Counted from the whole stretch's first letter, positions 38 to 60,923 are shown. The stretch: 60,923 nucleotides of DNA, filler included, from Jimgerdemannia flammicorona (GCA_003990765.1; 2 parts of 2 records of this genome joined end to end with filler, not necessarily neighbours in it); one strand, 5' to 3'. Program-made: numbers and translations. The notes: generated from the sequence alone by a model not told the origin.

Positions 38-365
38 TGGAGGGAGCGTGCAAAATTTGCGGCCCTCCGCTGACAGCAAGGGGCAGCCCCAAGCCGCAAG
101 TGTCTGGGTCAGAGGGGGAGGCAGAGGGAGCACGCAAAATTTGCAGCCCTCCACCAGCAGCGAGGGGCAGCCCCAAGCTGTTAGCGCCCGGGTCAGTGGG
201 CGGAGTCGGTTGGCGGGTGGGGCAGGCGGAGGGAGCACACAAAATTTGCAGCCCTCCGCCAGTGGTGTAGGGGCAGCCCCAAGCCGCCAAGGAGTCCAGG
301 GCGGAGGGTGCTTCTGGCGGTCGGAGAGTGCTTCTGGCGGTCGGAGGGCATTTTCGGTGGTCGAA
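38..365. repeat. GC-rich tandem repeats: three ~85-105 bp units (GAGGGAGCRYRCAAAATTTGCRGCCCTCC...GGGGCAGCCCCAAGC) then three ~20 bp units (GGAGRGTGCTTCTGGCGGTC)
   Basis: Units start near 39, 125 and 228; the 20-mers lie at ~303-362. The ORFs 10..270 and 48..413 are by-products of the repeat. Confidence 0.85.
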
Positions 366-459: not shown

Positions 460-545
460 CTGCCCAACCTGCACAAAATGGCTGCCTAACCCTCACGAAA
501 GATTGCCTAACCCTCACGAAAGATTGCCTAACCCTCACAAAAACT
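460..545. repeat. 21-bp tandem repeat (TGCCTAACCCTCACGAAAGAT) x3 plus a degenerate copy
   Basis: Copies at 483, 504 and 525; degenerate copy at ~461. Confidence 0.9.
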
Positions 546-2596
546 GCTCCACCCGCCGGTCCCAGGCCTTGATGAGCCTGTCATCCATTGTGAGTGTGAC
601 GACTGTTGTGTCCGAGCTCTCCTCAAAGGCGATGGTACCGTGGTGGTCATGTGGTTGGAATAGGACGGCCGTGTTGGCCACAAACGGGACACCGAAACCA
701 TAGGTGAGGTTGTACCAGACTCCGCCGCTGTCCTCCCAGGTTGGGCCCTTCCTTTCCGGGACGTAAAACATTACCGGGGTGACGTTGTTGTCTGTGTGTG
801 TGGGCAGAGAAAGGTTGCGCCCAACATATTCTGATGTGATGTGAGCGTACGGTTGGGTGAACCCTTGGCCCAGGACCTCATACTGCTAGGCTGTGCTGGT
901 GGATACCTGCCCTTGGTCCAGCCCTGGGAGCCCCAGCTTGGAAACCTGCCAAAACAGATGGCAACCAGTTAGTCCTTTTTGGGTTCGGGGGGCAGAAACC
1001 CCCCGGGCCGCAAAAACCCCCCGGGCTGCAGCACCCTGAAAGAGCGGAGCTCCTCACCTCATACAGCATGCTAAATTGCGCCAGGAATGTACGTACAGCC
1101 ACGCCGAGGTCACCACCAAGCTGGCCTGCCGTACGCTCTACCAATCTGCTCAAAGAACCCCAGATCATAGCCGCCATCGCCGCACAGGCTGTGTCGTGCT
1201 CGCGCGCAGTTTGCTCTTTGACGACACTTCTAAAGTTCCGGTAGGGGTACAGAATCTTGTGCATCCCTAGAATTGTATCAAAAAGAGTATGTCGGCGAAG
1301 AGTGTGATTTATCTGAGAAGGGGTTAAAAAAAAAGGGAGATGAGTGCGGGGGATTTCGGAACCCACCCTTCACCAGTGTTGCAGTATACCCAATTCCCAT
1401 CCAAACCCCCCCTCCTTGCTTTTTTCGCCCCCTCTTCCCTGCCACCTGGTATTTGACGCAATCCTCACAAATCTCGTTGATGTGGCAGTGAAGCTCGTCA
1501 CCATAGAGGTTCCTTACCACCATCGCAACCACCTCTCCACGTTCATTAATAAAGATATGGTTCTCTTCGTCATTGGTTACTCCTGCTGGCCAATGGACCC
1601 CTTGGTCGAGTATGATTGGCTCTGATTCGAATGTAGACCCCCAAGCCTTGATGACGATGCTGGTACTGCTCATGCTGAATATCTTGCCCTCGAATTTCTC
1701 TATTTGATCAGACGCCGGACGTGGTTGAACTCGGGTAACTTTGAACTCTCCTTTCCACTGGAACTGAGCCCTGATCTGAGGGACCGAGATAAGTATGCGG
1801 ACGGGTTGCGTGTGGGCAGGTTGCATGTGGGCAGGTTGCGGGTGGCATGCGGGCGGGTTGCGTGCGGGCAGGCGGGTTGCATGCAGATGGGTTGTATGCG
1901 GGTTGCATACGGGTTGCGTGTGGGTGTGGGTGTTTTTTAGGGGGAGACCACGTAAAAATGAAATTAAATAAAACATGGAGATGGGTATTTCAGAAAAAGA
2001 GCGTGAGTGAGTGAGCTGCATGCCAACAAGTTGCATGCCGACGAGTTGCACACCGACAAGTTGCACGAGTTGCACAAGAATTGCTCACGAAGGCTTGCTT
2101 CTGTTCCTTTTGAGACCTCCGCCACACGATGCATTGACTCAACAGCTCAGCCACCAAAGGCATGCCCCGCAATGTCCGCCAGCCTTTCTTCATCTTGACC
2201 AGATGTTGCGAATAAAGTTGGCAGATCTCGCCATAGAGCTGTGGACCCTGAGAAAAGCACGAGGTAAATTGGGTCATGCTGGGGAAGTTTAAATAAATAA
2301 ACACAAGTAAACAAGTGGCGGCTGAGTGAGCAACCTACATCTACTATTGGCTGCTCCAAAAAGGCTGCCGCATACATAGCTGTGAGGTCTGTGAATTCCG
2401 AGGTCCGAAGGGCCACCGTGAGTTGTTGCCGGAATTCTCCCTCATCCCCACCATCGCCATCACCACTGCCACTGCCACCGCCATCACCCCTTTGGCTCTC
2501 GATGAGCAGCTTGTGTGCTGTCCATATGAGAAAGAATCTAACATTGTCAGCAGAGAGTGTGTTTCCACCTCGAATACTCCCTCTTTTGACGATCAT
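535..2596 (-). pseudogene. Spliced TET/JBP-like 2-oxoglutarate/Fe(II) dioxygenase gene, ~481 codons, one in-frame TAG at 886-888 (pseudogene or recently disrupted copy)
   Basis: Exons 2596-2339, 2247-2089, 1775-1367, 1266-1058 and 945-535. All four introns are GT..AG with matching phases; intron 4 has a GACTAAC branch site. The joined protein reads FINERGEVVAMVVRNL...GGVWMGIGY...KLGLPGL...LSLPTHTDNNVTPVMFYVP...GGVWYNLTYGFGVPFVANTAVLFQPHDHHGT, i.e. HxD, a GG-beta strand and a distal H in the order of the fungal TET/JBP double-stranded beta-helix. Confidence 0.72.
1795..2076. repeat. Intronic short tandem repeats (GGGTTGCRTG-type and RAGTTGCAYRCCRAC-type)
   Basis: Lie inside predicted intron 2 (2088-1776) and explain several spurious ORFs there. 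Confidence 0.8.
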
Positions 2597-2797: not shown

Positions 2798-2994
2798 TTC
2801 AATCCGAATGGATCAATCCAGATGGGTCAATCCAGATGGGTCAATCCAGATGGATCAATCCGGATGGATCAATCTGGATCAATCTGGATCAATCCGGATC
2901 AGATCACGAGACCAATCCAAGTTGATTCGAATCCATCACATGATGAATCTGAATCGAATCTCATCCGGATCAACTCCATTCATTCGGAGCACTA
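2798..2994. mobile_element. Putative DNA-transposon end: GATCAATCC(A/G)GAT subterminal repeats ending in ...CGGAGCACTA (5'-TAGTGCTCCG on the minus strand)
   Basis: Dense direct and inverted GGATC/GATCC repeats. At 2995 the sequence switches abruptly into the middle of a family-B LTR region. Confidence 0.4.
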
Positions 2995-3899
2995 TTTATC
3001 AGCAAGGTTGGCAGAGTGATCAGAGTTGGCAGAGATTCTTGGTTCGAGATCATATCATCATCAGAGGAATCATTGTCTTCTACTTCATCTTCATCAAATC
3101 AGATTATATTATAGACATCCTTTATGGCATATCTGACTTGGAGCATTTGCAGGATATAGTCATCAGGGTGCAGAAAGATTCTATCTGTAGTCTGGACATA
3201 CTTGAGATACTTGTGGTTGAGTTCTTGTATCATATCATCAATTTGGCCATAAGACAGAGTAGCAACCATTTTGGCAGTAGTAACTCGAAGGTAGAGAATA
3301 AAGGTGCTGTACTCATAAAAGAATTCTTGATGTTTGCGAGCAATGAGTTTCTGGTATTGAGATATCTGGATAATATCTGTATTATGATAGTATTCGACCA
3401 TATCTTCCAGGAGGTAGCCAATCTAGTAGTAGTTTGAGATTTGTCCAATTCAGTAGACTTCACTAAGTATGTTCAGAGTATTCCATTAGGCTTCTATAAA
3501 GTAGAGAGGTGCTAAGCTATAGATATTCATAAGGAGCAGAGGGGGTGTGGCTTAGTTGATAATAGCATTCCAAATGTCAGTACAGATGTGGTTATAGATC
3601 TTAGTAGTCATATTTGTATATGTTCAGAAGTTATGGTTGTTGTTTGTTTTGGTTCTCTGTTTTGACATATCTTGGTACTTGGTATATATATATTTGGTCC
3701 TAATTGATAAGATCCTGTTTATATAAGTCTTATATTCTATGACTTTATATTGACTCAGCTTTATGCACTGTGACTTCGGTTTGACTCAGCTTTGTAATCT
3801 TGCAGGTGATTTCCAGATTTGTTTAGAGGTTACATGTGATTTCAGTGGCTTGTTCAGAGGGTGACATGTGATTTTGGTGGCTTGGAGGTTGTGTGCTTA
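2995..3899 (-). mobile_element. Gypsy family B fragment (B0): 3' region and part of the LTR, including the best-preserved ORF3 (ATG 3611)
   Basis: Aligns to 11930-12560 and 26000-26293; 3800-3899 matches 27720-27800 downstream of the B2 chromodomain. Confidence 0.85.
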
Positions 3900-6800
3900 C
3901 AGGGTGAAACTTCTTAACTTTGAGAGTGATGTCTGGTTCTTGTTCCTCCTCATTATTGTTGTCAGCTTGAAGCTCTGGAGGCTGGTCAACTTCTTCAGCT
4001 TCCCTTTTTGCTTCAGCAACTTCTTGCTCATACTTTTGTTAGCAGATTTTCCTAACTTTACTAATATAGGACCAGCAGTCATTCAGGTGTTCATAGTAGT
4101 ACATTCTAGTACTATAGAGGTATCTTCTTTGAGAGGCATAGCTATTGATGATCTTATTGTACTACTGCTTATCTGTGAGCTTGAGTGTCTTGTTCTTATT
4201 CTTATTCTTATTCACCAAGTGCATAAAGACTTCTGTATCCTTTTTATCTTCTTTTTTTATGTCTGGTAGAACTCCTTTATAGACATTGATAGAGACTCAT
4301 ACCTTTCTTCCTCTATAGTTGATTTGCATCTTCTGGGCATTGAGATCAATGATGGCCTTGGCCTTATAAAGTCATTGGTTGCCAATGAGGATGTCATAGT
4401 TGGTGGCACTTATAATAATCATATCTACTGAGATGGTAGCTCCTCCAATCTTGATGGAGACTTCTTAGATCTTGCCAAGAGAGGTAGCTCATGTACTATC
4501 TGCTGTGATATAGACTATCTTGGTAGACTCTTCAATATCCCAGCCTAGGCAGTCAATTGTCTTCTTACTCATAAAGTATCCTTCAATACTAGTATCAATA
4601 ATAGCATTAAAGATATAATCTTCAATCTGATATAGGGTATAGGCTGATGTCTTATGCTGATCTTCAGATTCTTTATCTGAATCTTCTTGATTATCTTCTT
4701 ATATATTGTGAGCTTTGATAATCTTGTACTCTTGATTCTTAGCAATAGTTGCAAGTCCTACTCTCAACTGCTGTCTGAAGACAGAGACTTCAGCTAGTTG
4801 TCCAAAAGTAGCATTGACCTTCTATTCCTTGAGGTCCTTATAGATATCATACTGGTGGATCTTGGTCTTATACAGCTTCTGTTCTTTCTTGCTTTCACTT
4901 TCTTCTGAGACTAGAGTAGTATCTTCAATAATTTAGCAGATAGCTTCATATAACTCTATATCTTAATCAATCTCCTTGAGTTAGGTCTTGCTTTGAATAG
5001 TGATAGTTGAGATCTTCTTTGGTCTTCCAACTGACTTATAGTTGCTCTTCTTATCATAGGGCTTGAACCAGGTTCTGGCATCTTTAGTAATAGGGTAGAA
5101 TTTGGACTCCTTGTAGTATTCTTCATTATCAGTATCACCAATCTCCTCAATGACTACTATATTAGTTTGTTCTCTGGTTCTGGTAGCATTGCTTGGTTGG
5201 GCTTTGCATCTTGTTTTGATCATGTAACTCTTTGCATAGTGGCCTTCTTCTCTACATCTGAAGTATGTGATATTGCATTCTTCTATAACAGCTACAAATC
5301 TCTGTACTGATCTCCTGTTGGCACTTCAGACTTTTTTAACAACATCACTAAGATATGCAGTTATCTTTTTTTATTTTTATTTTTTATAGTTACTTGGACT
5401 CTGTCTTTATTACCAGTCTATGAATAAGTATATAATATCACTACCTACTATCTGATCCCCATAGGGGAGCCTCTCCCCACCCCTTCATGAATAAAGATCA
5501 CTCTCTCACCAATGACTCCAACTCTCCTACCACTCTGTCCACAGATTTTCTCCACCAAGCAGCACCTCCGACCCCTCTGCAGCTCCCAACCAAGCCACCA
5601 GCCTGTCAAGGTGTCCTCTATAAGTCTCTGCCACCATGAAAACCAGCTCCCCAAGCTCTATCACCTCCCATCCTCAAAAACAAATAACCAGTGACCAGCT
5701 AGCCCAACCCAAATAGCCAACACCCAGCCTAAGGTAATCCACTCCTTTCCTACCCCTCCTACCAATCGATCCCTCAAGTCCTCCCACCTCTCCCATACTT
5801 CATCTCTCCTATGCCTCACCCCCAAGTGGTCCCCAATGATATGCAGTTATCTTAGCAAACTGCTTAGTGAGTTCCTCCATTAGGTCAGCTTTGGCTATCT
5901 TGGGGGTAGGTGGGAATAGTTGTCTGTTTATAACTATAGCAGGTATGATACTGGTTGGCTTTGATAACTCTATCTTAATATCAGTTATTTTCTCCATTGA
6001 GTATTCAGCAGGGTGTCTGGCAGTATAATATCTCTGTACAAAGACCACTTTCTGGTCAAGAGTCAGAGCAGTTGAGGTAGACTGGATTGTTAGGGCAATT
6101 TCAGGGTAAACTTCTTTGAGGAAGATTGAATCAGCTATTTAGTTCTTGAGGTAGTCATCATAGTTAGCCAAGATAATTTAGTGGCAGATTTGGATATAGA
6201 ATAAGTTAGAATCTTCACTAAGTCTTTGGCAGATAGTGTTGAGTTGATTCTTAAGAGCTTGCTTGATATCTTTAGTATAATATATAGTTCTGAGGAAGGT
6301 CTTTATGTTAGTAAGTCTGGCTACACTAGTATTAACAATAGTAGCTGTATTGAACTTATCTCTGGCAGGTCCCCTGAGGCTGACTAGTAGAAGGGCCAAT
6401 TATATATCTATATTGAGGGCTCATATGATAGCAAATTGTTCAAAGTCTTTAATGAAGATCAGGATTGACTCTTCAGTAGTATATCTATAGAATGTAGAGA
6501 GATATATTTCCATCTTATCTTAAATTCTTGCAAGAGTGACTCTTGTAGTCAGGGTAGTTATTGTGGTGGTTATTTGTTTTTCAGCTTAAAAGTGAGAGAT
6601 TCATCTTGAATTATCAGTCAATGGGCACTAAGTTGTCATATAGTGGTCACTGAGTTCTTCAAATATATCAGATTCTCTCCAAGATATATCTCTTAGACTA
6701 ACCTCAAGTTTGTTATAAGCAAGTTCTTATTGGAGTATCTTTCTAAGGTCTTATAGTCCTCAAACTTCTTATCTTTAAACTGTCTTATTATCTCTTAGAT

Positions 6801-7470
6801 TGCTTGCATGGAATTGAGAGTAAGTGAACTGGAACTGACTTTATTTCAAAGGAAATACATAAGAGAAGTATTTATATAAAATATAATTCAATAGTTGCTA
6901 AAATATAAAGCTAAATATAAATTCCAATAACTAAATAAAATACTGGAATACAGAAAACTACAGTTGTCAGTATAGATTCCAGTGTTGGTACAGATGGTTG
7001 TACAAGTTCAGAGTGCTGATAAAATTTTGGTGGTACAGAAAAAGGATGCTGAAAGAATTCTGAGTTATAAAAGATCAGAATGCCAGTAGAAGGATTAACT
7101 GTTATATAGGAAAAGAATGGTGTATTTCATATATATCATATGAGATGATATCATTACCAATGATGTCATCATGTTTGGTAGTAGAGAGAACAAGGAGATC
7201 AGGGGCTCTCCAGTCTATGAGGTCCTCTTCTATAAAATAAGAGACAAATGTAGAGTCTTGGAGAGTTGCTACTACTGCAGTTTCTTGATTCTTCTTTTAT
7301 ATTCCTCAAGATATCTGTCTTGTAGTCTCAATGACTTATAGTTAGTCACTATGACTCATCTTGTAGCCTGGGTGAGTCATGCCATATGATCTTCTTATAC
7401 TCTGATCTAGTAATTTATAAGGAAAGACTGTCTTTTGTACTGATGTCATCATTCTGAGATCACTATTATA
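3900..7470 (-). mobile_element. Gypsy family A copy A1: 5' LTR (6634-7470, with internal deletion near 7265), PBS, gag, protease and Zn module; truncated just before the dUTPase core
   Basis: Colinear with 46770-50546; PBS remnant at ~6613-6630; interrupted by a LINE fragment. Confidence 0.9.
5368..5837 (-). mobile_element. 5'-truncated LINE copy (3' end of ORF2, 3' UTR, degenerate poly(A)) inserted in A1 gag
   Basis: Matches the 3' ends at 30530-30990 and 60430-60890. Perfect TSD GATATGCAGTTATCTT at 5352-5367 and 5838-5853. Confidence 0.95.
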
Positions 7471-8024
7471 ATAAATAGAAATTATCAAAATAATATTAAA
7501 AAATAGATACTATAAATATAATAATACTCACTTTTACTATTTTAAGTAATATCAACAAATATACTAGAGTTATACTATAGTAAGTTAAAATTAGTAACTT
7601 CTATTATCTATAGATTAATTAGTAAGAGTTTTTTTTTCATCTGCTCTCTTTTTTTTTAAAAAAAAGAAAATAAAAATAAAATAAAAATACTTATTAGTAT
7701 TTATATTTTAACAATAGATACTACTAATAAAATTATTGAAGTTGACTATAAGAAGTATACTATTACTGAAAAAATCACTTTCATCTTCAGAACAAGTAAG
7801 ATTTTACTAACTAATATACTTGATAATATATAACTTAAAAAAAAAATATAAGTTTCTATATCTAATCTAGTAACTAATTAGCAATAAAGCTCTTACTATA
7901 ATAATATAGCTAGAGAAAGATAAGAAAGACAAGACAAGGTATTAGAATAAGTAATAAAATAAGAAGTTAAACTTTAAAATAATAGTTACTAAATATATTT
8001 ATTTTGAGTATACTATTATATATC

Positions 8025-8210
8025 CAACTATTTGAGTATATATATTGAATATATATATTGTTCATATATATATTGGATATATATATATATTGAGTATATA
8101 TTGAGCATATATATTGAATATATATATTAGATATATATTGAGTATATATATTAGTTATATATATTAGGCATATATATTAGATATGTATATATATTAAATA
8201 TATATATTCA
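8025..8210. repeat. TA-rich minisatellite (TATATATTGRRY units)
   Basis: Directly visible ~12-bp periodic array. Confidence 0.85.
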
Positions 8211-8217
8211 TGCTGAC

Positions 8218-9405
8218 CTCTTTCTCCACTACCTTACTAGTTACAAGGTTTGGTAGGCAACCTTCCGAGTCCTCTTTCCCCTATTATTACTCCCTCTACC
8301 TCAGGTTGGTTTGCTGTACCTGCATGGATATAGTGGGAGGAGGGCAATGGTGATGAGTTGCCCTTTTATTGGTGTCAGATCAGTGTCTTCTCTACTTTTT
8401 CATGGTTTCTAGTATCTTCAGCTGTATCTGGAGTGCATCCGTTTTGGTGCAGCACCTTCTTCCTTTTGCCATTACTAACAAGAAGCTGTCTCAGTATATC
8501 ACAGGTTATATAGGGAGTTGGCTGACCTTGGGCATCAAGTGCTCAGTATAGGTTACCTGCAGATCCTCAGTGCCTGTGGTGGGGCCCTCTGGCTTTGGCA
8601 AGCTTTTTGGCAAGCATGATTCTGGTATAGGTGACTGTTTTTAGATATTGTCAGAATGGGAGGGGAGATGGCTGTCACAGATAGGAGGATGGGTGATAAC
8701 AGTGAACTAGTAGGGTGCCAGACTGGGGGTGGTTATCAGGGCTGGGGTAGATAATATTTCAGTGGGGCCTTTCAATTGGCTGGTGGAGGGTGGAGTAGTA
8801 CAGGGGTTGACATCCTGGCTGTATCCAACTGGAACTAGGAGCTGATGCAGCAATGTAATTGAGGCCCACAGGCTTGGAGAGTGGGGCCTTCCTCATTTGG
8901 CAGTACCTAACTAGAACCAGGAGCTGACATGGCAATGTGATCAAGGCCCACAGACTCGGGGAGTAAGAGTGGGGTCTTTTCTGGTCCTAGCCCATATATA
9001 AGTCCTTTGCAGAAGGTTTTATATATAAGTCCTTTACTCACCCACTTTGAATCTGCTTTACTTTCTATTGGTTAGTTGGGGAGTTTTTTCTTTATCTCAG
9101 GCTTTCTTTTGGGGTTCAGGAGACTATTCTTTATTCAGTCCTGGTGCTGCTATATCTGATGCATAGGTGTGCTCTCGCATGTAAATGATGATCTAGCCCT
9201 GGTGAGCAGACAAGTCTAGTCTATGTCATGGGGGTCAACATAGCCAGTGTTTGACAGATATAGCTGGAGCAGTGGGACTGCTGGATAGTTTAGTAGCCTA
9301 GGTTCATGAGGAGATATTGTTCAGTAGATAGTGGGAGAGAGTTTTGGCCTATATAGTCTAGGTTCTCTTCTAATAAAAATCTGTGAGACTATGAGTCTGT
9401 TAAAA

Positions 9406-9406
<1 letters not shown>
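8218..9406 (+). mobile_element. ~1.2-kb non-autonomous poly(A) retroposon (SINE-like or LINE-derived)
   Basis: The 5' end TCTTTCTCCACTACC...TTTGGTAGGCA resembles the LINE 5' end. The 3' end GTTTTGGCCTATATAGTCTAGGTTCTCTT-AATAAA-...-An matches the reverse complement of 54601-54700. No long ORF. Confidence 0.65.
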
Positions 9407-9439
<33 letters not shown>

Positions 9440-9484
9440 TAGATATATAACTTAAGAATTGCTTATTTCCTTACTATTTATTTT

Positions 9485-9860
9485 TTTAAGTCAGATAAAA
9501 TCTATACTTTGTAGTTTTTTTGATATTTATTTCTAAAGAGTAGTAGTCAAGGCTTACTCACCTCACTCACTTCAATATCTTACTTACTGCTAGTTTACTA
9601 TATTGCTCATTTATTATTTTCTTGCTTATCTACTTACTATTCTTTTACTCACTCACTTACTCACTATTCAAGTTAGGTAAATTCTATATTTTGTAGTTTT
9701 TTGGAGGATTGTACTCATATATTTCTAATGCTCATTTCCAATATCTTTTTATCTATTTTTTCAAGTCAGGTAAAATCTATACTTTGTAATTTTTTTAATA
9801 CTTATTTCTAGAGAATATTGCTTATATATTTTCAAGACTTACTTATTTTGCTCACTTTAA
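9485..9860. repeat. Degenerate dispersed repeats (AGTCAGRTAAAATCTATACTTTGTARTTTTTT) x3 with CTTACTCAC-type spacers
   Basis: Copies at ~9489, ~9670 and ~9764. Confidence 0.7.
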
Positions 9861-10132
9861 TATCTTATCTTATAATAGTTACTACTTATATAGATTATAA
9901 ATAAACTACTTTACTACATATAAGTTCTTAGCCTCTCATCTTAAGATATATAATATAGTAAAATCATTATTTATAATTCTATATCATATATAATACTACC
10001 TATCAGATATTATATAATATTACTTCTCAGCCTTCTCCTAAACTGAATTACTATATAATACTATAGTAATTTTATTATATCATATATATTGAAAAGAAAA
10101 ATACAGAATATTTATCTATAGAATACTTAACT

Positions 10133-10201
10133 AAAAAAAAAAAAAAAAAAAAAAATTTTAATTAAAAAAAAATAAAAAAAAAAAAAAAAAAAAAAAAAAA
10201 A
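10133..10201 (+). repeat. Interrupted poly(A) tract, possibly a retroposon tail
   Basis: A-rich run; no TSD recognised. Confidence 0.6.
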
Positions 10202-11399
10202 CTTCAATTCAAAGCTCTAAAATATATTTGTCAGTAAACAGAATAATAGAATACCACCTTTCTCTTATATACTTATTAACAGTATATATCTCAATCCCTT
10301 TATCATATATATTATATCAACTAGATAGCTAATTACTATCTAGTATTTGGCTAATACTATCTTATCTCTATTAGTATAATAATTAAAGATAATAATAGTT
10401 ATTAAGTTCTTTAGGTCTTTACTCTTATCTGGATGAAATTTTAGCTATCTCTATTCAGACTTACAAGATATCAATATTATATAATACTATGATCAGAATA
10501 GCTATATCTGAAACCATAGTACATATATGTATATCTCTAACTCATTATTACCTAGATATGGATCAATTTGAATATTACAGTACTACTAAAAGATATCTAG
10601 AAAGTAATACTGAAACAGTCTATACAGATATTCAAACAGTAGTATAAGTCTCTAGTAGCTACTAAGTGAGTCTTTCTTATATTTAGTAATATATGATAGA
10701 GATCACAAAATAGCTTTAGTAGATTATTCTATTATTTCTATTATAAAAGAGTTACTTATTAAAGTATCATTACATAGTTTTGAGAGAGTTTTCTAAAAGT
10801 TCTAGATATTCTGGAAGACTATTTTCTTTGAGGTCAAGATTAATTTCATATAAAGTATATCCTCTATACTTATTAATTTCAAGATTAAATTAATGTCTCA
10901 ACTAAAGTCCTTTTTTGAACTAGTTCTGAATGTTCAGAATTTTCTATATTTCAGAAAGTTTAAAAAACTAAAACTAGCTTAGTTGAATCAGTATATTACT
11001 ACAGATAATATCTAATTAGAAAATTTCAGAATTTAGTTAAAAGAGAGATCTAATAGAGTATGAATTTACTTAAAAGTAGTTTGTGGGTTATTAGATAGAT
11101 TTATTTACTATTCATGATATTGCTATACTAGAAGTAGTTATATAAAGAGATATTTGTATGAGGAAAAGTATTTATCTGGATTCTTATCTATTTTTATCTA
11201 TTTAAGTCTGAGTTTTTAAGATCTGGAGGAGTAGGTATTTATACTAATGAGGGGCTATCTGGACTATGCTAAATATGGATATAGCACTTAATACTTTGAT
11301 AAGTCAGAATGCAGTTATATAGTATAAGTATGAACTGATATATGTATATATCAAGAGATCATCTAACTACTGAGTCAGTATGTAGTTATATTATATAAG

Positions 11400-12547
11400 A
11401 CTAATCTAACTATACTAATAACTGTTAGACTATCTATAGATTTAGATACTGTCTGAGTATTCTTCAATGAGATCACTATCAATGATATTATCTCTAATGA
11501 AGTAGTTATCTAAAAAGAGCAGTTCTTGGATTATACATATCTTCTTATTTATTTATATAATAGTATATTGGAACCATATCACTGTTCTATAGGATAGTAT
11601 CATCTATCTCATATACTGAGTAAGGTGTTGGTGGGCAGAGAAGAGGTATATTGTCTTCACTTTTATCAGATTTGCTATCTGCATATCTTTGGTAGATTAT
11701 AGTACTATATATTATAGAGTTATAGTAAGCTAATAGCTATGGTTTGTTTTATGTATTTATATTCAGAAGATAGAGTTGTTGGTTTAATCTCAAGAGTTGT
11801 CTAGAGATATAGATTGTATTCTCTGGTCTCTTTATTATAGTTGAAGTAATTAGGTATAAATGTAGATTGATACTTATACTAGTGGTCATTGTCTCAATAG
11901 ATCTTATAGATAGTTATAAACTGTTGTAAGTTTATTAGCAGAATTGGTGAGATAATCAGAATTGATAGAGATTCTTAGCTAGAGGTCATGTTGGTATTGG
12001 AGGAATTATTATCTTCTATATTATCATTATTGAACTGAATTATATTATAAATATCTTTTATGATATATCTAACTTGGGGCATTTGTAGGATATGATTATC
12101 AGGATAAAAAAAGAATCTATCTATAGTTTGAATATACTTAATATACATATAGTTGAGTTCTTATATCATATTATCAATTTGGCCATAAGACAGAATGACA
12201 ATTATTTCAGTAGTAGCAACTTGGAGATAGGAAATAAAGGTGTTATACTTGTAAAAGAGTTCTTAATATTTATAGACAATGAGTTTCTAATGTTAAGACA
12301 TCTGAGTAATATTTATATCATAGTGATGTTCAACTATATCTTCAAAGAGATAGTCAATCTAGTAGTAGTTTGAGATTTGTCTGATTTGATAGACTTTGCT
12401 AAATATGTTTAGAGTATTTTATTGAGCTTCTATGAAATAGAGGAGTACCAGGCTATGGATATTCATAAAGGGTAGGAGAGGTGTGGCTTGGTTGATAATA
12501 GTATTCCAAATGTCAGTATAGATATGGTTGTAGATCTCAGTAGTCAT
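11400..12547 (-). pseudogene. Family B accessory ORF3 (decayed), largely inside the LTR
   Basis: Homologous to 3611->2995 (MTTKIYNHICTDIWN...YYxIGYLL...IARKHQEFF...); the 3' end is approximate. Confidence 0.6.
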
Positions 12548-12659
12548 AGTTGTGTATATATTTAAAAAATATAGTTGTTTGTTTTGATTTATTATAGTTC
12601 TTTATTTCAATATATGTATGGTATTTTTAATATATGTATATACATATGTACATTTGTGG

Positions 12660-18338: not shown

Positions 18339-21300
18339 ATGGAAATGCATCTCTCTACATTCTATAAATATACTACTGAAGAGTCAATCCTGATCTTTAT
18401 TAAAGACTTTGAACAATTTGCCACTGTATGAGCCCTCAACATGGATGCACAATTGGCCCTTCTACCAGTTAGCCTCAGAGGATCTACCAGAGACAAGTTC
18501 AATATAGTCACCATTGCTAATACTAGTGCAGCCAGACTTATCAATATGTATAAAGACCTTCCTCAAAACTATATACTATACTGAAGAGATTAAGCGAGCT
18601 CTCAAGGATCAACTTAACACTATCTGCCAGAGACTTAGTAAAGATCCTAACTCATTTTATACCTGAATCTATCACCAGATTGTCTTGGCTGGCTATGATG
18701 ACTACCTCAAGGAACAAATAGTGGATTCAACCTTTCTCAAAGAAGTTTACTCTGAAATTGTCCTAGCAATCTAGTCTACCCCAGCTGCACTGACTCTTGA
18801 TCAGAAAGTGGTCTTTACACAGAGATATTAAACTGCCAGATACTCTGCTGAATACTCAATGGAGAAAATAACTGGCATCAAGATGGAGCCATCAAAGCCA
18901 ACTAGTATCATACCCACCACAGTTATAAACAGATAACTATCTCTACCTACTTCTAAGGCAGCCAAAGCTGATCCAGTAGAGGAACTCACCAAGTAGTTTG
19001 CCAAGATGACTATACACCTTGGTGATATTGTTAGAGAAGTCCAAAGTACCAACAGGAGACCAGTACAGAGATTTGCAGCTGCTACAGAAGAATGCAATAT
19101 CACATACTTCAGATATAGAGAAGAAGACCACTATACAAAGAGTTGCATGACTGAAACAAGACACAAAACCCAACCAAGTAATATTACCAGAACTAGAGAA
19201 CAAACCAATGCAGTAGTCATCAAAGAGATTGGTGATACTGATGATGAAGAATACTATGAAGAGTCTAAATTCTGCCCTGTCACTGAAGATGCCAGAACTC
19301 AGTCCAAGCCCTATGATGGGAAGAGCAACTACAAGCCAGTTGGAAGACCAAAGAAGACCCCAGCTATCACTATTTAAAGTAAGACCCAACCTAAGGAGAT
19401 TGATCAAGATATAGAGTTAGATAAAGCTGCCTACCAAATTATTGAAGGCACTACTCCAGTCTCAGGAGAAAGTAAAAGCAAGAAGAAATAGAAGCTATAC
19501 AAGACTAAGATCTACTAGTATAATATCTACAAGAACCTCAAGAAACAGAAGGTCAATGCTACTTTTGGACAACTAGCCAAAGTCTCTGCCTTTAGACAGC
19601 AGTTGAGAGTAGGACTTACAACCACTATCAAGAACTAAGAATACAAGATCATAGAAGCTCACAATATACAAAAAGATGATCAAAAAGACTTAGGTGAAGA
19701 ATCTGAAGACCAGCACAAAAAATCAGCCTATATTCTATATCAGATTGAAGATTATATCTTTGATACCATCATTGATACCAGTGCTGAAGGATGCCTCATG
19801 AGCAAGAAGACAATTGACTGCCTAGGCTGGGATATTGAAGAGTCCACCAAGATAGTCTATGTTATAGCAGATGGTACATAAGCTACCCCCCTTAGTAAAA
19901 TCTGATAAGATAGGAGGAGCTACTATCTCAGTAGATATGATTGTTATAAGCACTACTAATTATGACATCCTCATTGGCAACCAATGGCTTCACAAGGCCA
20001 GAGCCATCATTGACCTCAATACTCAGAAGATGCAGATCAACTATAGAGGAAGAAAGGTATGAGTCTCTATCAATATTCACAAAGGAGTTCTACCAGACAT
20101 AGAGGAAGGAGATAAAGAGGACACAGAAGTCTTCATATACTTAGTGAACAAGAACAAGAACAAGACACCCAAGCTTACAGATAAGCAGTAGTACAACAAG
20201 ATCATTGATAGCTATACCCCTCAAGGAAGATGCCTCTATAGTACTAGGATATACTGCTCTGAACACCTGAATGACTGCTGGTCCTATATCAGTGAAGTCA
20301 GGAAAATCTGCCAACAGAAGTATGAGCAAGAAGCTGCTGAAGTAAAAAGGAAAGCTGAAGAAGATGACTAGCCCCCAGAGCTTCAAGCTGACAGTGATAA
20401 TGAGGAGGAACAAGAACTAGACATCATCCTCAAGATCAAGAAGTTTTACCCTGAAGCTAAGATCCCAGAATACAAGACTGAAGGAGCCATAAGAATGGAC
20501 CTTGCCAGTATTCAAGATGCTACCCTCAAACTACAGACCACTACTCTACTTGGTACCAGAACTGGAGTCAAGTTGCCAGAGAACTATACTGGAATTATCA
20601 AGACCAGGAGTAGTCTGGCCAAAAGTAAAATCTCAGTTAAAGAAGGAGTAATTGACCCTAATTATACTGGTGAGATCTTTCTCATAGTCAGGAATCACAA
20701 CCCCACCCCATTTGAAGTCAAGAAGTATGACAGGATTGGCCAGATGCTGATCCATAAAATCAAGAAGCCCAAGATCACTAAAGCCATCAAACTCATCAAG
20801 ACTAAGAGAGAAGAACAAGGCTTTGGATCTACTAGAAGAGGAGTCTATACTACCACCAAGATTACCAAACTTGAGTATAAGAAAGACAAGAACCAGAATA
20901 AGTACACATATACCATTAGAGAAAACTTTCTCTTAGAAGAACAAATTCTCAAGATCCTATACCAGAATGAAGAAGTACTTACTACAAACTTCAGAGATAT
21001 CCACAATCAAGAACCTAAGTACTATCATAAAGTTGACACCAGTGATACCAAGCCCATCTACCAAAAGGCCAGATCTATACCACCTGCCTACAGAGAAAGA
21101 CTGCAAGCAGAACTCAAGAAAATAGAAGAAGCTAGAATCATCAAGCAAGCTATCAGTCTCTGGGCTTCACTCATTGTCCTTGCCCCAAAGAAAGGAAGCA
21201 AGTCTGGAGAGTTTGCCCCAAGACTCTGTATTAACTACAGAAAGCTCAATACAATCATCAAGAAAGATAGGCAGCCCTTACCAAATATTTCAGAAATTCT

Positions 21301-23586
21301 TACCACTCTTGGAAGTAAAGCCAAATACTATACTACCTTGGATCTGTTCTCAGGCTTCTATTAGATTAGTCTCACTCAAGATGCCAGTGAGAAATCAGCC
21401 TTTATTATACCTGATACCACCTATATCTACCTGCAAATGCCATTTGGAATATGTAATACCCCAGTAAGTTTTCAGCAAATGATGAACAGAGTCTTTAGCA
21501 ATGAGATTGAAAAATAGCTCTTTATATTGATGATGTAATCATTTTCAGTAATACTATATGGGAATATGTCAACTATATATAGCTAGTCCTCAAGAAGCTC
21601 AAGAACATGGCCTCTACATCAAGCCTAAGAAGTATAAGTTTGTAGCTCAGAAAATCACCTATCTAGGATACCTCATCAACCAGACTAGAATCTATACAAA
21701 CTCTATGAAGATTGAGGCTGTTGTAGCCTACCCAAGACTCAGAACAACCACAGAAGTCTATACCTTTCTTGAACTAGCCTCCTACTATAGACGATTCATC
21801 AAAGGATACTCTAATATTATATGTAGTGCCTATCTATAAGCTACTGAAGAAGGAAACCAAATTTGAATGGACCAAGGAATGCCAAGAAACCTTCAATGAA
21901 CTCAAGACCAGATTGATCCAAGCACTCATCCTCAGAAGATCAGATTGGAACCTAGAGTTCATCCTGCAGACAGATGCAAGTGCTATAGGACTTGGAGCAG
22001 TTCTAGCTCAGAAAAAAGATGGACATGAATATGTTATCTCCTATATAAGCCAAGGTAACCATGGAGCAAAACAGAACTATGAGTCATACAAGCTTGAATG
22101 CTTAGTAGTAGTTTGAGTAGTAGATAAGTTCCACTACTACCTAGCCAGGAAACACTTCACTATTCAAACAGATTATTCTGCTCTTGCCTGGCTATTCTAT
22201 ACTCTGAACCCCAAAGAAATATATGCCAGATGGATTTACAGGCTGCAAGAGTATGACTGTACTATCAAGCATCACTCAGAAAGAACTAATGTCAATACTG
22301 ATGCACTCTCAAGGATACCCTCATTAAGACTATTTAATATAAATAAAGAGTTATACTATGGATTAATCAGCTATCTTGGGCAGTAGAAGATGCCCAACCA
22401 TCTTAAACTCTGGACAATCACTATCATCAACTGGACTTGGAAACAGTTTGAACTAGACAACACTATACTCAGAAAAGGAGGAAAGCTTATAATATCTGAA
22501 CATAAGAAGTATCAAGTAATGAAGAAAGTATATAAACAAGGATATCTAGGAGAAATCAATATATATAACAAGGTAAGAAGAACTATGTGGTGGCCTAAGA
22601 TAGAAAAAGACCTGTACCAATTTGTCAAAGGGTGTGATAAGTACCAAAAACAGAAATAAGATCAATAAGACCAAGTACCTGAGTCATCAAGAATTGAGCC
22701 TATCTCCTTCCACTACATTGCAATAGATATCATTGGGCCACTACCAGTAATACTATCAGGAAACTGCTATATTATAGTTATTGTAGACCTCTTTATCAAA
22801 TAGATAGAAGCAGGAGCATTACAAGAAGCCAATGCCTTCTCTATAACTGACTTCCTATACTGAGAAATTATCTGCCACTATAAGACACTAAAGTAAATTA
22901 CTACAGACTGCAGCACAGAATTTGTCAATTGATTCCACAAGATAATATATTAGAAATATAAGATTTAGTATATCAAGACTACTATATACCACCCTCAAGG
23001 AAATAGATAGATAGAGAGAATCAACAAGACCCTCAAGAACATCCTAGTGAAGATCTCAGACATATATGAGAATTGAGATAACTATCTCCCAACTGCCCTC
23101 TCTGTCTTATGAGATATATAGTCACAGAGTACACACTTTACCCCAAGAGAACTGCTCTTCAGAGAAGAAGATTCTAATGAAACCTTAGCTACAAATCTAG
23201 ACCTAACTTGGAGATAGATTGACTCAGAAATCCAGAGACTATACAAAATCAGAAAGAAGGCTGAAGATTATATCATCAAGTTATAAGTATTGATAAAGAA
23301 GAATGCAGAAAAGAATTACAAGACCTTAGAATCCATCCAAATCAGAGAAAAGGTTCTACTGTATCAAAATATAGTAGAAGTCTCATAGTCATGAAAACTG
23401 GAGCCCAAATAAGAAGAACTCTTCTATATACAAGATATCAAGAGAACTACCTTCTGGCTTAGAAAACTCTCAGAGACCATACTACCTACCATAATATATA
23501 GAAACAGACTCAAGAAGTATCATAAACCTATATAAGAGAAGTAAAATATAATGACCACCTGCAAGGTTCTAGTCTACAAATCATAA
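18339..23586 (+). pseudogene. A2 single-frame gag-pol: CCHC, protease, Zn module, dUTPase (~20420-20845), RT, RNase H, integrase
   Basis: Motifs IIDTSA; GIIKTRSSLAK/GVIDPNYTGEI/GFGST; APRLCINYRKLN; LDLFSGF; MPFGICN; YIDD; LQTDASAIGLGAVL; DIIGPLP; YHPQGN. Confidence 0.95.
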
Positions 23587-30528: not shown

Positions 30529-30595
30529 TTTTTAAAGTCATTTGGACTCTATCTTTATTATCAGTCTATGAATAAGTATACAATATCACCACCCA

Positions 30596-33500
30596 CTATT
30601 CGATCCCCATAGGGGGGCCCCTCCCCACCTCTTCCTGTATAAAGACCACCCTCTCACCAATGACTCCAACTCTCCCACCACTCTGACCACAGATTTTCAC
30701 CACCAAGCAGCGCCTCTGACCCCCCTGCAGCCCCCAACCAAGCCACCAGCCTGTCAAGGTGTCCTCCATAAGGCACTGCCACCATGATAACCGGCTTCCC
30801 AAGCTCTGTCGCCTCTCCTCCTCAAATACAAATAGCCAGTGACTGGCCAGCCCAACCTAAATAGCCAATACCCAGCCTAAAGTAATCCACTCCACTCCTA
30901 CCCCTCCTACCAATCAATCCCTCAGATCTTCCCATCTCCTGCATACATCATCACCCCTATACCTCACCCCCAAGTGGTCCCCAATGGCCTGCCAAAAGTC
31001 TCTCAACACCTCACACTCCCCTAGCCAATGTTCTGATGTCTGTACAAATCCCTCTTCCTGCCCTACATTATGGCACTCCTCATAGTCGAAGCAGCCCCCT
31101 ATGACAAGGTGTCCTGAGTAGAAGTTAAGCATCACATTTCTCCTCAGCACGTGCCACCAGATCATCCAGTACTTCGGCAGCATCCATTTTTTCACTGCGG
31201 TACTCTAGGTCCAAACTCCATACCAGTTCCACTCCTCTCCAATTTCAACTCCTTGCCAACCACTAGGCCACAGATCCTGGCCTGGCCCCCTTTGGCATTC
31301 TACTCCATCACTAATGTCGAACTCAGGTAAAGGTACGCTGCTCAGTAGAATGCCATCCCATCTCTACATCACCAGGCCCCAAGCCCTCTTCCCCTCATTC
31401 TCCTGCCAGCGAATACCAATGCGGTGTGCCCCCTCTGCTATCCCCCACCAGAAGCCTTTATATCGCAATTGTGCAGTGTTCTGAAGCCCAACTAATGAAA
31501 GAAGATCACCAGTCGAGTCTCTTGGTGATAACCATCTCTCCCAGACCTTCTGCAGCAGGGGAATCCAACCCCCTCCATGCAACTCTACTGTCCTCTTAAG
31601 CCACCATGCCCTCAAGCAGTATAGTCATTTGAGGAAGTCCACCAGTCTAAGACCACCTCTTGCCACCAGTAGGGACAAAGTCTCCCAACCAATCTGACTC
31701 CGTCTGCCAGCCCAAATCCATCTCTTGGCTACCTTTACCAATCTCTTCACCACCCAGGCTAGGAAGTCCAGATGATAAGCCAAATACTACAGCTTCGGCA
31801 GTCAGTATACATACATTCAAAATCGAGATCCTTCCTGCCAGAGAGAAGTGTCTTCCCCCCCAACCCCATAGGTCCTCCTCCCAAATTCCAACCCTCTGCT
31901 CCCACCACAGTCTAGGCAGAATAGACCCATAAACCAACAAATAGATACCCAAGTACCACACCACCTCTCCAGTGGGGACAATTGTTCCAATAACCTCTCT
32001 GCCCACCAGGCTGTTGCCCAGCACCATTGTTTCGCACTTGTGCCAATTCAGCTTCACCCCAGAGTTCTCCTCATACCACTTCACTGTCTTCTTGAGCTCC
32101 TCGACATTAGCAATTACTCTCAAACCAACCACTATGTCATCCACAAAGGCTCCAACTTTCCAGCCAACTCCATAGATAGAGAGCCCCACTATCCTCCACC
32201 GAATTCTGTCCACTAGAGGTTCTAAAGAGAGAGCATACAAAATGGGGGACAGTGGGTCCCCCTGGGGCACTCCCCTACTCAGAGGGAATGCTACCCCTCT
32301 ATGCCCATTACACAAGAGCGCAGTCCTACTCCCTTCCAGTAGGCTGACCATCGCTGACCGAAATGGGACTAGAACCCCAATTCTATCTAATACTTTCACC
32401 AGCCAGACTCTCCGCACCCGGTCATAAGCCTTCTCCTGGTCCAAGAAGACAAGATGCCCATCCAGTCCACAGGCTCTAGCACCTTCAATAATGCCATGTA
32501 CCCAGGCTGTACCATCTCTAATAAGCTGACCCCCTATGAAGCCCCTCTGCTCAACACCAACAATTTGCTAGGCTACCTTCTGGAGCCTTGTGACCACCAC
32601 CTTAGTCACCAATTTTCAGTCCATATCTAGCAATATTATCGGCTGCCAGTTCTTCCAATCCTCTCACCTTTCTTTGTTCTTATAAAGCAGCATCACCAGC
32701 CTAAGATCCTGCTCCCCCACCCATCTCCCTGACTGCAATATAAAATCACACAGTGCTGTCAACTCCCCCAACATGCCCAGGACTCCAACCATTCGCTTCT
32801 AGAAGTCCCAGAGTAGGCCATCCTCCCCAGGCACTATACCCGAGGCTGTCATGGCAAGAACCTAGTAGATCTTATCCTCTTTTACAGGTATCACTAGGTC
32901 ACCTAGTCTCTCAGCTTGTGGTGGGTACCAATCTTCCAATGTTTGGTCAATGGCTGTAGCATCTGCCCCACCCTCCTCCTCACTCCACAATCTACTTCAT
33001 TGCTCCTTCAGCGTTCCAAGGATATCCTATACACCATATACTAGCACACCATCTGAGTCAAGCATCCCTTCTCACCGCTGCTGTACCCTTCTTGCTCGAA
33101 GTGTCCTCGTGAGAAACTTAGAAGGCCTCTCCCCTTCCTCCAGCCCCTGCCAATGAAGCCATGCTATCAGGCCTTGCATTCTTGACTCTTCCTCTTCCCG
33201 CAGCATCTGTTGTAGTTTCCCAACCTCCATCTTTACCCTCATTATTCTCTAATCCTCTTATCCCTCCACTACTACCAGTCTCGCTCATTCCTCCAGGAAC
33301 CTAGTCAATCTAGTAGAGGCCCAATGTACTCTCCACCTACGCTGCCTCTCAGCCTCTCTGTCAGCCTCACTCCAGTACATCCTGGCCATCTCTTTCATCC
33401 TCACCCACCAAACCCCAATTGGGGCACCTTCCTACTGCCAGTTCTCCACCTTCAGCTAAATGTCTTTCACCCACTCCTCCCACTGGGACTCATCATCCAT

Positions 33501-34256
33501 CAAGGAGGAATTTAGGCACCAATGTCCAGGCCCATCACCACTTCCCCCAAAACACCCCTGTCCCAAAAGGCCCCAGTGATCTGACCACAGACACCATTCC
33601 ACCTCTAGCATCTTCCAAACATCACAGCCCTAACAGTTGGCTATCAGAATCCAGTCAATCCTTGTCCCCAGGCCTCCAGCCCAATGTGTATATACCCTCC
33701 TGTCCCCCCAGTACTCTCTACCAGCATCCACCAGTGCTCCTAGCCTTTCGACTTCCTCTCACATCACCAGCCCCCCACTCCTGCTCTCAGTACCCTGTCC
33801 TCCATTAGTTCTATCCAACCATATATCCCAAACCATATTGAAATCTCCTCCAAGCATATCCACCCCAGCTTCAGCAAGGATCTCACTCTCCTGGAGCCCT
33901 TTCACCCAATCCACATGCTCCCCCCATATAGCAGGGCAGTAACAGGAGCCAACTATAACTGGCTCCCAACCTGCATGAATCCACTCACCCCAGACCAGTC
34001 TCTCCCCCCAGCTCCTCACATCCCTTATCTCCCCTCTGCCTTTCTGAATCAGAATCCTGACCTTGCTGTTCCAAATCGCTATGCCTCCCCATTTCTTTGT
34101 CCATTCCATCCTATCAGAATCATCCTCACACCTGACATCCTGCAAGAGGAAGAGATTGGCCTCCAATCTCTTCAGCCAAGTAAAAATATTCCTACATCTA
34201 ACTGCACCCCTTAGCCCATTCACATTCAAAGAAAAAATGTTGGTTGTACTGTTCAT
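30596..34256 (-). pseudogene. LINE ORF2: APE endonuclease, reverse transcriptase, C-terminal Cys/His domain (disrupted)
   Basis: FSLNVNGL, LLQDV, GGDFN, DQEKAYDRV, GVPQGDPLSPILY, FVDD, CFDYEEC..EHWLGEC. Confidence 0.95.
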
Positions 34257-34286
34257 AATGAAATACAGTTTGTTCTCAGTTGGTCT

Positions 34287-54597: not shown

Positions 54598-54638
<41 letters not shown>

Positions 54639-57140: not shown

Positions 57141-57170
57141 GGATTGACTGAGAACAAACCATATTTTACT

Positions 57171-60825: not shown

Positions 60826-60884
60826 TGGGTGGTGATATTGTATACTTATTCATGGACTGGTAATAAAGACGGAGTCCAAGGGAC

Positions 60885-60923
<39 letters not shown>

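What the first reader, a model, noticed from the sequence alone, without database searches (positions are those of the whole stretch)
535..2596. Hidden five-exon TET/JBP-like DNA dioxygenase gene next to a cytosine-hypermutated TE cluster
Seen: five separate ORF fragments join through four canonical, phase-consistent GT-AG introns (2338-2248, 2088-1776, 1366-1267, 1057-946) into ~481 codons. The C-terminus has HTD...GG-x-W-x-N-L-x-Y-G-F...AVLF...HHGT, preceded by GGVWMGIGY and LGLPGL. Established: TET/JBP enzymes use HxD...H to oxidise 5mC or T, and fungal members are often cargo of KDZ and Plavaka transposons. Inference: this is a divergent TET/JBP-type gene, possibly an anti-silencing cargo gene. 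The usual 2OG-binding Arg after the distal His is not evident (HHGT...DTTVVTLTM), and the N-terminal ~200 aa are unassigned.
Basis: partly seen in the sequence, partly recalled or inferred. Interest (0 to 1): 0.85.

Follow-up and report, generated by a model that had tools for sequence, protein, structure and literature searches.

The report
Broken copy of Tet-like dioxygenase gene

Summary
The exon chain on the minus strand is real in part. The five pieces join in frame through four GT..AG introns. They carry an in-frame TAG at 888-886, upstream of the catalytic motifs. An intron-free 374-aa relative (P0004) and a genomic relative (L001) confirm three of the four introns. Exon 1, intron 1 and the first 28 codons of exon 2 have no support. 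The likely start is the ATG at 2163, giving four exons and 367 codons.

No Pfam or PDB sequence match was found, and two AlphaFold runs failed. The family is tiny: 7 hits among 1.84 billion representatives. One hit, Moniliophthora perniciosa MPER_04261, matches the family profile (hhalign 97.4%, E 1.3e-11). By eye it is about 65% identical to the "PE-type" transposon-borne TET/JBP-like dioxygenases of Kojima 2025 (PMC12730594, Table S1).

The window has HTD where PE-type has HxE, then a distal His and a mostly conserved Arg 21 residues later. Soil-metagenome contigs show many variants, and nearly all read TGG (Trp) where the window has TAG.

Verdict: a decayed copy from a divergent branch of a known kind. 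Interest is modest.

The parts
2089..2163 (-). Supported first coding exon. The probable start codon is ATG 2163-2161 (MPLVAELLSQ...).
   Evidence: P0004 begins MPAKLLDFLDQ and aligns here within one residue. L001 has the matching ...KLKKEF|intron|ARHQF joint.
1776..2088 (-). It holds short tandem repeats.
   Evidence: Five of the 12 listed indels among related contigs lie here.
1367..1775 (-). Second coding exon (IRAQFQW...GGVWMGIGYTATLVK).
   Evidence: Collinear with P0004 residues 27-167 and with the L001 exon 748-1182.
1267..1366 (-).
   Evidence: Ungapped joint ...LVKG|MHKIL against P0004 ...YAKGMHCRI. L001 and L002 have an intron at the same place.
1058..1266 (-). Third coding exon (MHKILYPYRNF...FSMLYE).
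946..1057 (-).
   Evidence: L001 and L002 have an intron between P0004 residues 226 and 238.
535..945 (-). Last coding exon with the catalytic core. The stop is TGA 537-535.
   Evidence: phmmer hits P0002 (82% identity), P0003, P0004, P0005, P0006 and P0007.
886..888 (-). In-frame TAG (nonsense). Relatives and most related contigs read TGG (Trp).
   Evidence: P0002 has W here. At 887 the other letter makes up depth 215.3 of 225.3 in X1, 30.3 of 35.3 in X3 and 9.67 of 9.67 in X14.
790..798 (-). HTD, the proposed Fe(II)-binding His and Asp (H281 and D283 of the four-exon model).
   Evidence: H and D are invariant in 6 of 6 rows of A5. P0006 has HTE and P0005 has HVN.
640..642 (-). Distal His of HGT (H333), 50 residues after the Asp.
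   Evidence: Invariant in A5. It aligns with the HGV His of phage Cooper gp2 relatives.
577..579 (-). Arg (R354), 21 residues after the distal His. Candidate 2-oxoglutarate-binding Arg (inferred).
   Evidence: The same ...VT..RL block is seen by eye in the PE-type sequences of Kojima 2025, Table S1.
2164..2596 (-). Open frame with GT..AG but no homology; probably 5' leader or promoter.
   Evidence: No match. A 4-nt deletion at 2290 is seen in related contigs.
2799..2901 (.). Tandem arrays upstream of the gene: a 14-nt unit x5.4 and a 10-nt unit x3.7. CATCA-CA-TGATG lies at 2934-2945. Possibly subterminal repeats of a DNA transposon (speculative).
   Evidence: The termini motif is compared with the PlavakaB termini quoted in Kojima 2025 section 3.2.2.
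2995..12589 (.). Neighbour: a hypermutated LTR retrotransposon, with LTR-like copies at about 2995-3654 and 11931-12589.
   Evidence: blastn 77% identity over 663 nt. CpG observed/expected is 0.05 and GC is 0.33. Gag and protease remnants were seen by eye in the translation printed.

Best explanation
Window 2163-535 (minus strand) is a four-exon, 367-codon gene copy from a small fungal family. The family is a divergent relative of the 'PE-type' TET/JBP-like 2-oxoglutarate/Fe(II) dioxygenases that fungal DNA transposons carry.

Inferred mechanism for an intact copy: His281 and Asp283 (PTHTD) and His333 (HGT) bind Fe(II), Arg354 holds 2-oxoglutarate, and the enzyme oxidises a methylated base in DNA. 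The substrate is most likely 5-methylcytosine, which would counter methylation-based silencing of the element that carries the gene.

The window's own copy cannot make that enzyme. A Trp codon has become TAG 30 codons before the HTD motif. About a dozen further transitions, mostly at CpG, have changed residues relative to the commoner variants.

Shown here: the exon structure, the stop codon, homology within the family and to MPER_04261, and the many sequence variants.

Inferred: the fold, the metal and cofactor ligands, the DNA substrate and the transposon carriage.
For: Gene structure.

The stop is a mutation of Trp. P0002 has W there, and position 887 reads C in nearly all related contigs.

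The window copy is decayed. In 29 of the 40 best-supported differences the window has A or T where the others have G or C, and 20 of those 29 are at CpG. In the listed exonic differences the window carries 14 amino-acid changes, including GCG>GTG four times.

Family: 7 of 1,835,955,588 representatives reach E<=1e-3, and one of them (P0008) is a low-complexity repeat.

Link to PE-type. The family profile against MPER_04261 (P0006) gives hhalign probability 97.4%, E 1.3e-11. P0006 against the Helitron2-1_LB PE-type domain printed in Kojima 2025 Table S1 gives 64 of 98 identical positions without gaps. I counted this by eye. The paper (sections 3.2.3, 3.4 and 4.2 read) ties PE-type to CMD1, NgTET and CcTET by structure comparison (e-values <1e-5).

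Other leads. ESM Atlas nearest named clusters are PF20515 'Tet-like 2OG-Fe(II) oxygenase' (0.96 with 15% of members carrying it; 0.88 with 72%) and PF12851 Tet_JBP (0.91 and 0.90) (one source). The best hhalign alignment to phage Cooper gp2 relatives puts PTHxD on PYHRD and HGT on HGV (P 0.013).

Many variants exist. 794 contig pieces of run X1 lie on 400-2800 at 85-100% likeness, introns and flanks included, and 171 of 177 listed kinds of change are transitions. In another lineage, L002 is a copy of L001 with two in-frame stops (20 differences in 2690 columns, 18 transitions, 13 at CpG). The P0005 cluster has 28 members.
Against: No Pfam family matches at E<=10 for any exon or any of five relatives. 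This includes Tet_JBP, PF20515 and every other 2OG-Fe(II) family. No PDB sequence match was found.

Both AlphaFold models are unusable (mean pLDDT 36.8 and 35.9), so the double-stranded beta-helix fold is not shown here.

The profile match to phage Tet_JBP has a probability of only 3.3%.

The PE-type hallmark HxE is not met (the window has HTD). The P0006-to-PE-type step is a count by eye, not a computation.

No transposase, inverted termini or target duplication were found. The only adjacent mobile element is an LTR retrotransposon, and the paper reports that no retrotransposon carries a Tet gene.

Contig depth in a metagenome is not a copy number. The variants could come from many strains rather than many copies.
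Confidence: 0.65

Rival explanations
1. The family is a 2-oxoglutarate/Fe(II) oxygenase, or another cupin-like protein, that does not act on DNA. It could be a small-molecule or protein hydroxylase. On this reading the HxD...H pattern reflects only superfamily-level kinship, not TET/JBP function.
For: No TET-specific profile matches. The match to phage Tet_JBP is weak (probability 3.3%). No fold was obtained. Even the published PE-type group has no tested activity (Kojima 2025 section 4.2).
Against: No other 2OG-Fe(II) Pfam family matches either. The only named neighbours in ESM Atlas are Tet-like. The published PE-type relatives resemble CMD1, NgTET and CcTET in structure. The behaviour as many decaying variants fits transposon-borne Tet genes better than a metabolic enzyme.
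Confidence: 0.2
2. One reading: exon 1 and intron 1 are real and give a lineage-specific N-terminal extension of about 114 residues.
For: The frame is open and intron 1 has GT..AG in phase. None of the 12 listed indels falls in exon 1.
Against: Residues 1-114 match nothing. P0004 starts within one residue of the Met at 2163. Exon 1 is low-complexity in part (the GDGGGSGSGDGDGGDEGE stretch). With 258 nt, only about 1.3 of 12 indels would be expected there, so seeing none says little.
Confidence: 0.12
3. The gene is functional in the organism, and the TAG is an assembly or sequencing error, or a rare allele.
For: It is the only frame-breaking lesion in the four supported exons. Nearly all related contigs read TGG.
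Against: A minority of depth in X1 (about 10 of 225.3) and X3 (about 5 of 35.3) does not carry the other letter at 887. The window copy also carries many other transitions away from the majority, as expected of a decaying copy.
Confidence: 0.07

Closest known systems
PE-type TET/JBP-like dioxygenases of fungal DNA transposons (Kojima 2025, Biology 14:1741, PMC12730594). [quoted passage not shown]
   Same: The block order is shared, seen by eye in Table S1 and through P0006: GE.V.VV.RN ... G....G.S/TAG ... LP..D..G ... P.H.[DE]N ... GG.[FW]Y ... G..V...ANT.......D.HGT ... V/LT..RL. The spacing between the carboxylate and the distal His is similar. Neither group is found by Pfam. Both occur as multiple decaying copies. 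Fungal origin.
   Different: The window has HxD where PE-type has its hallmark HxE. Identity to the PE-like P0006 is only about 30-37%. No transposase or element termini are seen here. Relatives include an AT-rich lineage (L001, L002) that may lie outside the taxa listed in the paper (not established).
Pfam PF20515 (2OG-FeII_Oxy_6, 'Tet-like 2OG-Fe(II) oxygenase' of Basidiomycota) and CcTET of Coprinopsis cinerea (the AG-type of Kojima 2025).
   Same: Nearest named ESM Atlas clusters. HxD...H pattern. Fungal, multi-copy and associated with transposons.
   Different: No HMM match at E<=10. The AG-type sequences printed in Table S1 share no blocks with this family by eye beyond HxD and H.
Pfam PF12851 Tet_JBP (for example Mycobacterium phage Cooper gp2, NgTet1, TET1-3, JBP1/2).
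   Same: The best profile-profile alignment puts PTHxD on PYHRD, GG on GG and HGT on HGV with matching spacing.
   Different: Statistically weak (P 0.013, probability 3.3%). No HMM match. Cooper gp2 itself scores below the Pfam gathering threshold (26.6 against 34.9 bits).

Membership tests
Pfam Tet_JBP (PF12851) | Match to the family HMM at or above the gathering score | tested here: not met
   No family at E<=10 for the five exon translations or for P0002-P0006.
Pfam Tet_JBP (PF12851) | HxD ... H metal triad in register with a known member | tested here: inconclusive
   hhalign of A2 against A8 (phage Cooper gp2 relatives) aligns PTHxD with PYHRD and HGT with HGV, but P is 0.013 and probability 3.3%.
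Pfam Tet_JBP (PF12851) | Double-stranded beta-helix fold | tested here: inconclusive
   Two AlphaFold2 runs on P0004 with 9- and 10-row alignments gave mean pLDDT 36.8 and 35.9. No fold search was run on them.
Pfam Tet_JBP (PF12851) | Arg after the distal His that binds 2-oxoglutarate | tested here: inconclusive
   R354 lies 21 residues after H333. R is in that column in 5 of 7 rows. P0009 has it one column earlier and L001 lacks it. Its role is inferred.
Pfam PF20515 (2OG-FeII_Oxy_6, Tet-like, Basidiomycota) | Match to the family HMM | tested here: not met
   No match at E<=10. There are only ESM Atlas feature neighbours.
PE-type TET/JBP-like (Kojima 2025) | Sequence homology to PE-type domains | tested here: met
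   Window exon against P0006: E 6.2e-6. Family profile against P0006: 97.4%, E 1.3e-11. P0006 against the printed PE-type domain: 64 of 98 identical, counted by eye, not computed.
PE-type TET/JBP-like (Kojima 2025) | HxE in place of HxD (called the hallmark in section 3.4) | tested here: not met
   The window, P0002 and P0003 have HTD. P0004, P0009 and L001 have HVD. Only P0006 has HTE.
PE-type TET/JBP-like (Kojima 2025) | Carried inside a DNA transposon with a transposase, termini and target duplication | not testable with these tools
   The window ends 534 bp past the stop codon, no genome is held, and there is no paralogue in the window. Only tandem arrays and a CATCA..TGATG motif lie upstream.
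PE-type TET/JBP-like (Kojima 2025) | Predicted structure similar to CMD1, NgTET and CcTET | tested here: inconclusive
   The models are too poor. No AlphaFold DB library was on hand.

The most novel reading that the evidence does not exclude
This family is a fourth, so far undescribed type of fungal Tet-like dioxygenase. It bears HxD, is sister to the PE-type, and has three intron positions conserved between a GC-rich and a very AT-rich fungal lineage. On this reading it is an old, vertically kept or repeatedly mobilised gene family that spreads as multi-copy elements and decays by CpG transitions. Its range may reach beyond the three fungal classes where transposon-borne Tet genes have been reported.
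Probability: 0.4. Interest if true: 0.45.

Novelty: new variant of a known kind. Interest (0 to 1): 0.35.

Why it matters
Transposon-borne Tet-like enzymes are thought to let mobile elements escape cytosine-methylation silencing in fungi. The most divergent group, the PE-type, was recognised only in 2025 and has no tested activity.

This locus adds a still more divergent HxD branch that standard profiles miss. It shows that such genes decay by the CpG transitions that their enzyme might be expected to counter. It also gives a set of natural variants, intact and broken, that could be used to test activity.

The window's own copy is a pseudogene, so its direct biological weight is small.

Tried and rejected
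- **Pfam.** Scans of all exon translations and five relatives found nothing at E<=10.
- **PHROGs.** The scan gave only chance-level rows.
- **PDB by sequence.** The A1 profile found nothing. P0006 gave one chance-level row, Rv1738, E 0.3.
- **Word-index protein searches.**
  - Exon 3 against longer proteins found nothing.
  - P0004 found only P0009.
  - The A1 profile found only P0004 itself.
- **AlphaFold2.** Two runs on P0004 gave pLDDT 36.8 and 35.9. Both are unusable, so no fold search was run.
- **Metagenome scan.** The three-row alignment gave L001 and L002.
- **Whole genome.** None is held, so copy number and element ends could not be measured.
- **RNA evidence.** No RNA holder is listed, and no spliced joint was seen in the contigs laid. 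This says nothing about expression.
- **Flank scan for a transposase.** I did not resend it. By eye the printed translation shows remnants of retroelement gag, zinc knuckle and protease, and nothing I could recognise as a DNA-transposase remnant.
- **Rejected: a 21-nt mini-intron that would skip the TAG.** It is too short, and relatives have Trp there within a continuous alignment.
- **Earlier findings of this scan.** Nothing on this genome or sequence. Two Naegleria Tet-in-transposon notes serve only as background.
- **Supplementary sequences.** The sequences of Kojima 2025 were read and compared by eye only.

Full report
**1. The observation**

The total is 1446 nt, and the quoted motifs are all there.

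It lies in the last exon, 30 codons upstream of the HTD motif. No second copy of the gene lies elsewhere in the 60.9-kb window.

**2. How much of the exon chain is real**

A phmmer search used the last exon, with the TAG read as X. It ran against 1,835,955,588 representative proteins and found only 7 hits at E<=1e-3. One of them, P0008, is a low-complexity repeat.

P0004 is a 374-aa protein from a 1702-nt contig and has no introns. The joined window protein aligns with it collinearly from residue 120 to 449. There is no gap at the exon 2/3 and 3/4 joints and a 5-residue gap at the 4/5 joint.

Two metagenome loci, L001 and L002, are genomic relatives. They are interrupted at the same three places, and the first of these joints is seen directly in the DNA.

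Among related contigs from public runs, all 12 listed insertions and deletions fall in the predicted introns or upstream of 2596. Nine are in introns and three are upstream; none is in an exon. Seven more were not shown.

P0004's first residues, MPAKLLDFL, align within one residue of the window's MPLVAELLS, whose ATG is at 2163-2161. The supported model is therefore four exons and 367 codons. The longer model is not excluded, but it has no support.

**3. The copy is broken**

- P0002, which is 82% identical, has Trp where the window has TAG.
- At plus-strand position 887, nearly all related contigs read C, which gives TGG. The depths are 215.3 of 225.3 in X1, 30.3 of 35.3 in X3 and 9.67 of 9.67 in X14.
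- In 29 of the 40 best-supported differences, the window has A or T where the others have G or C. Twenty of those 29 are in CpG context.
- The listed exonic differences include 14 amino-acid changes. Four are Ala to Val by GCG>GTG, and one is Arg to Gln by CGG>CAG.

The window holds a decaying copy. The pattern of decay is the one expected from deamination of methylated CpG.

**4. What the family is**

Standard tests fail:

- No Pfam family matches at E<=10 for any exon or for five relatives.
- PHROGs gave nothing meaningful.
- PDB gave nothing by sequence.
- Two AlphaFold2 runs with 9 or 10 rows gave mean pLDDT 36.8 and 35.9, so I made no fold search.

Three lines still point to Tet-like dioxygenases.

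(a) One phmmer hit, P0006 (E 6.2e-6), is the hypothetical protein MPER_04261 of Moniliophthora perniciosa. A profile of the other family members matches it with hhalign probability 97.4% and E 1.3e-11.

Kojima 2025 (PMC12730594) bears on this hit. I read the abstract, sections 3.2, 3.4 and 4.2, the figure legends and parts of Table S1. [quoted passage not shown] It states three things about them:

- HHpred sees them only weakly (E 1.4 to CMD1).
- Their AlphaFold DB models resemble CMD1, NgTET and CcTET (e-values <1e-5).
- HxE replaces HxD as their hallmark.

The PE-type domains printed in Table S1 line up with P0006 without gaps over 98 positions, and I count 64 identical positions by eye. They share the blocks seen in the window...GE.V.VV.RN......P.H.[DE]N......GG.[FW]Y......ANT......D.HGT......VT..RL.... 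I did not type those published sequences into a tool, so this step is by eye only.

(b) The ESM Atlas places both P0004 and the window's last exon nearest to Basidiomycota clusters. Some of these carry PF20515 ('Tet-like 2OG-Fe(II) oxygenase') and others are phage clusters carrying PF12851 Tet_JBP. These are leads and count as one source.

(c) I fetched a member of Tet_JBP, Mycobacterium phage Cooper gp2, and its relatives. The best profile-profile alignment with the family puts PTHxD on PYHRD, GG on GG and HGT on HGV. It is weak, though (P 0.013, probability 3.3%).

**5. Proposed catalytic anatomy (inferred)**

- His281 and Asp283 are in PTHTD, and His333 is in HGT. Asp283 and His333 are 50 residues apart. 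H, D and H are invariant in 6 of 6 rows of alignment A5.
- P0006 has HTE and P0005 has HVN.
It is R354, 21 residues after the distal His, present in 5 of 7 rows. The PE-type sequences share it by eye.

**6. Context**

The gene region keeps much of its CpG (observed/expected 0.66, GC 0.53). From about 2971 onward the window is a cluster of retroelements with CpG observed/expected of 0.00-0.08 and GC of 0.27-0.37.

The immediate right-hand neighbour is an LTR retrotransposon with LTR-like copies at about 2995 and 11931 (77% identity).

Upstream of the gene lie 14-nt and 10-nt tandem arrays (2799-2901) and a CATCA-CA-TGATG motif (2934-2945). The motif recalls the PlavakaB termini quoted in the paper. 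With one copy and a window that ends 534 bp past the stop codon, this is speculation.

Related contigs from a soil metagenome cover the whole laid stretch 400-2800, introns and flanks included. There are 794 pieces in run X1, with up to 15 contigs at one site. Of the 177 listed kinds of change, 171 are transitions. Many variants therefore exist. Whether they are copies in one genome or many strains cannot be told from contigs.

In the AT-rich lineage, L002 is a copy of L001 with two in-frame stops. The two differ at 20 places in 2690 columns; 18 are transitions and 13 are at CpG. The P0005 cluster has 28 members at 90% identity or more. This is the behaviour of a multi-copy, decaying element.

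**7. Verdict**

The gene is a Tet-like dioxygenase relative, but it has four supported exons, not five, and this copy is a pseudogene. Its 'cargo' status is unproven, and its nearest relatives are already in print (2025).

It fails the PE-type hallmark (HxD, not HxE) and all Pfam tests. I therefore file it as a divergent variant of a known kind rather than a member of a named family. Interest is modest.

Noticed in passing
window 2995-12589: A hypermutated LTR retrotransposon. Its LTR-like ends (about 2995-3654 and 11931-12589) are 77% identical. Gag zinc-knuckle and aspartic-protease remnants on the minus strand were seen by eye in a printed translation. CpG observed/expected is 0.05.
   Followed up: partly
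window 30529-36200 and 55319-60892: Two inverted copies (80-88% identical) of an element with a reverse-transcriptase ORF (31650-32567, minus strand). GC is about 0.51 and the GC skew is very strong and opposite in the two copies (about -0.4 to -0.5 and +0.3 to +0.5). A 458-nt piece also lies at 5381-5838. The cause of the skew is unexplained.
   Followed up: partly
window 20375-21364 (+) and 46117-46905 (-): Retroelement ORFs with a dUTPase domain (Pfam E 1.5e-24 and 1.2e-28). Near the second lie integrase, RT/RNase H and zinc-knuckle ORFs (44107-48794, minus strand). This looks like a dUTPase-bearing LTR retrotransposon in two copies.
   Followed up: no
window 2971-30500, 36200-42000, 49500-55000: Near-total loss of CpG (observed/expected 0.00-0.05), with GC of 0.27-0.37 and an excess of CpT/ApG (1.4-1.7). 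TpA/ApT is near 1. This looks like CpG-centred hypermutation and not classical CpA-directed RIP.
   Followed up: partly
window 40-205, 302-346, 447-547: GC-rich tandem repeats just downstream of the gene's stop codon: an 84-nt unit x2, a 20-nt unit x2.2 and a 21-nt unit x4.8. The window's left edge cuts whatever follows.
   Followed up: no
window 1802-1925 and 2017-2065: Short tandem repeats (units of 11-37 nt) fill much of the 313-nt intron. Related contigs differ here by deletions of 2, 15 and 28 nt.
   Followed up: no
L001 2320-2945 and L002 2474-2755: Downstream of the Tet-like gene, the two AT-rich metagenome loci share another interrupted ORF pair (93 and 94 aa) of unknown family. The whole 2.7-kb overlap is about 99% identical between contigs from two different metagenomes.
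   Followed up: no
L002 about 1187 and 1880: L002 carries two in-frame stops in the Tet-like gene (Trp to stop, and Arg CGA to TGA) relative to L001. This is the same kind of transition decay as in the window.
   Followed up: yes
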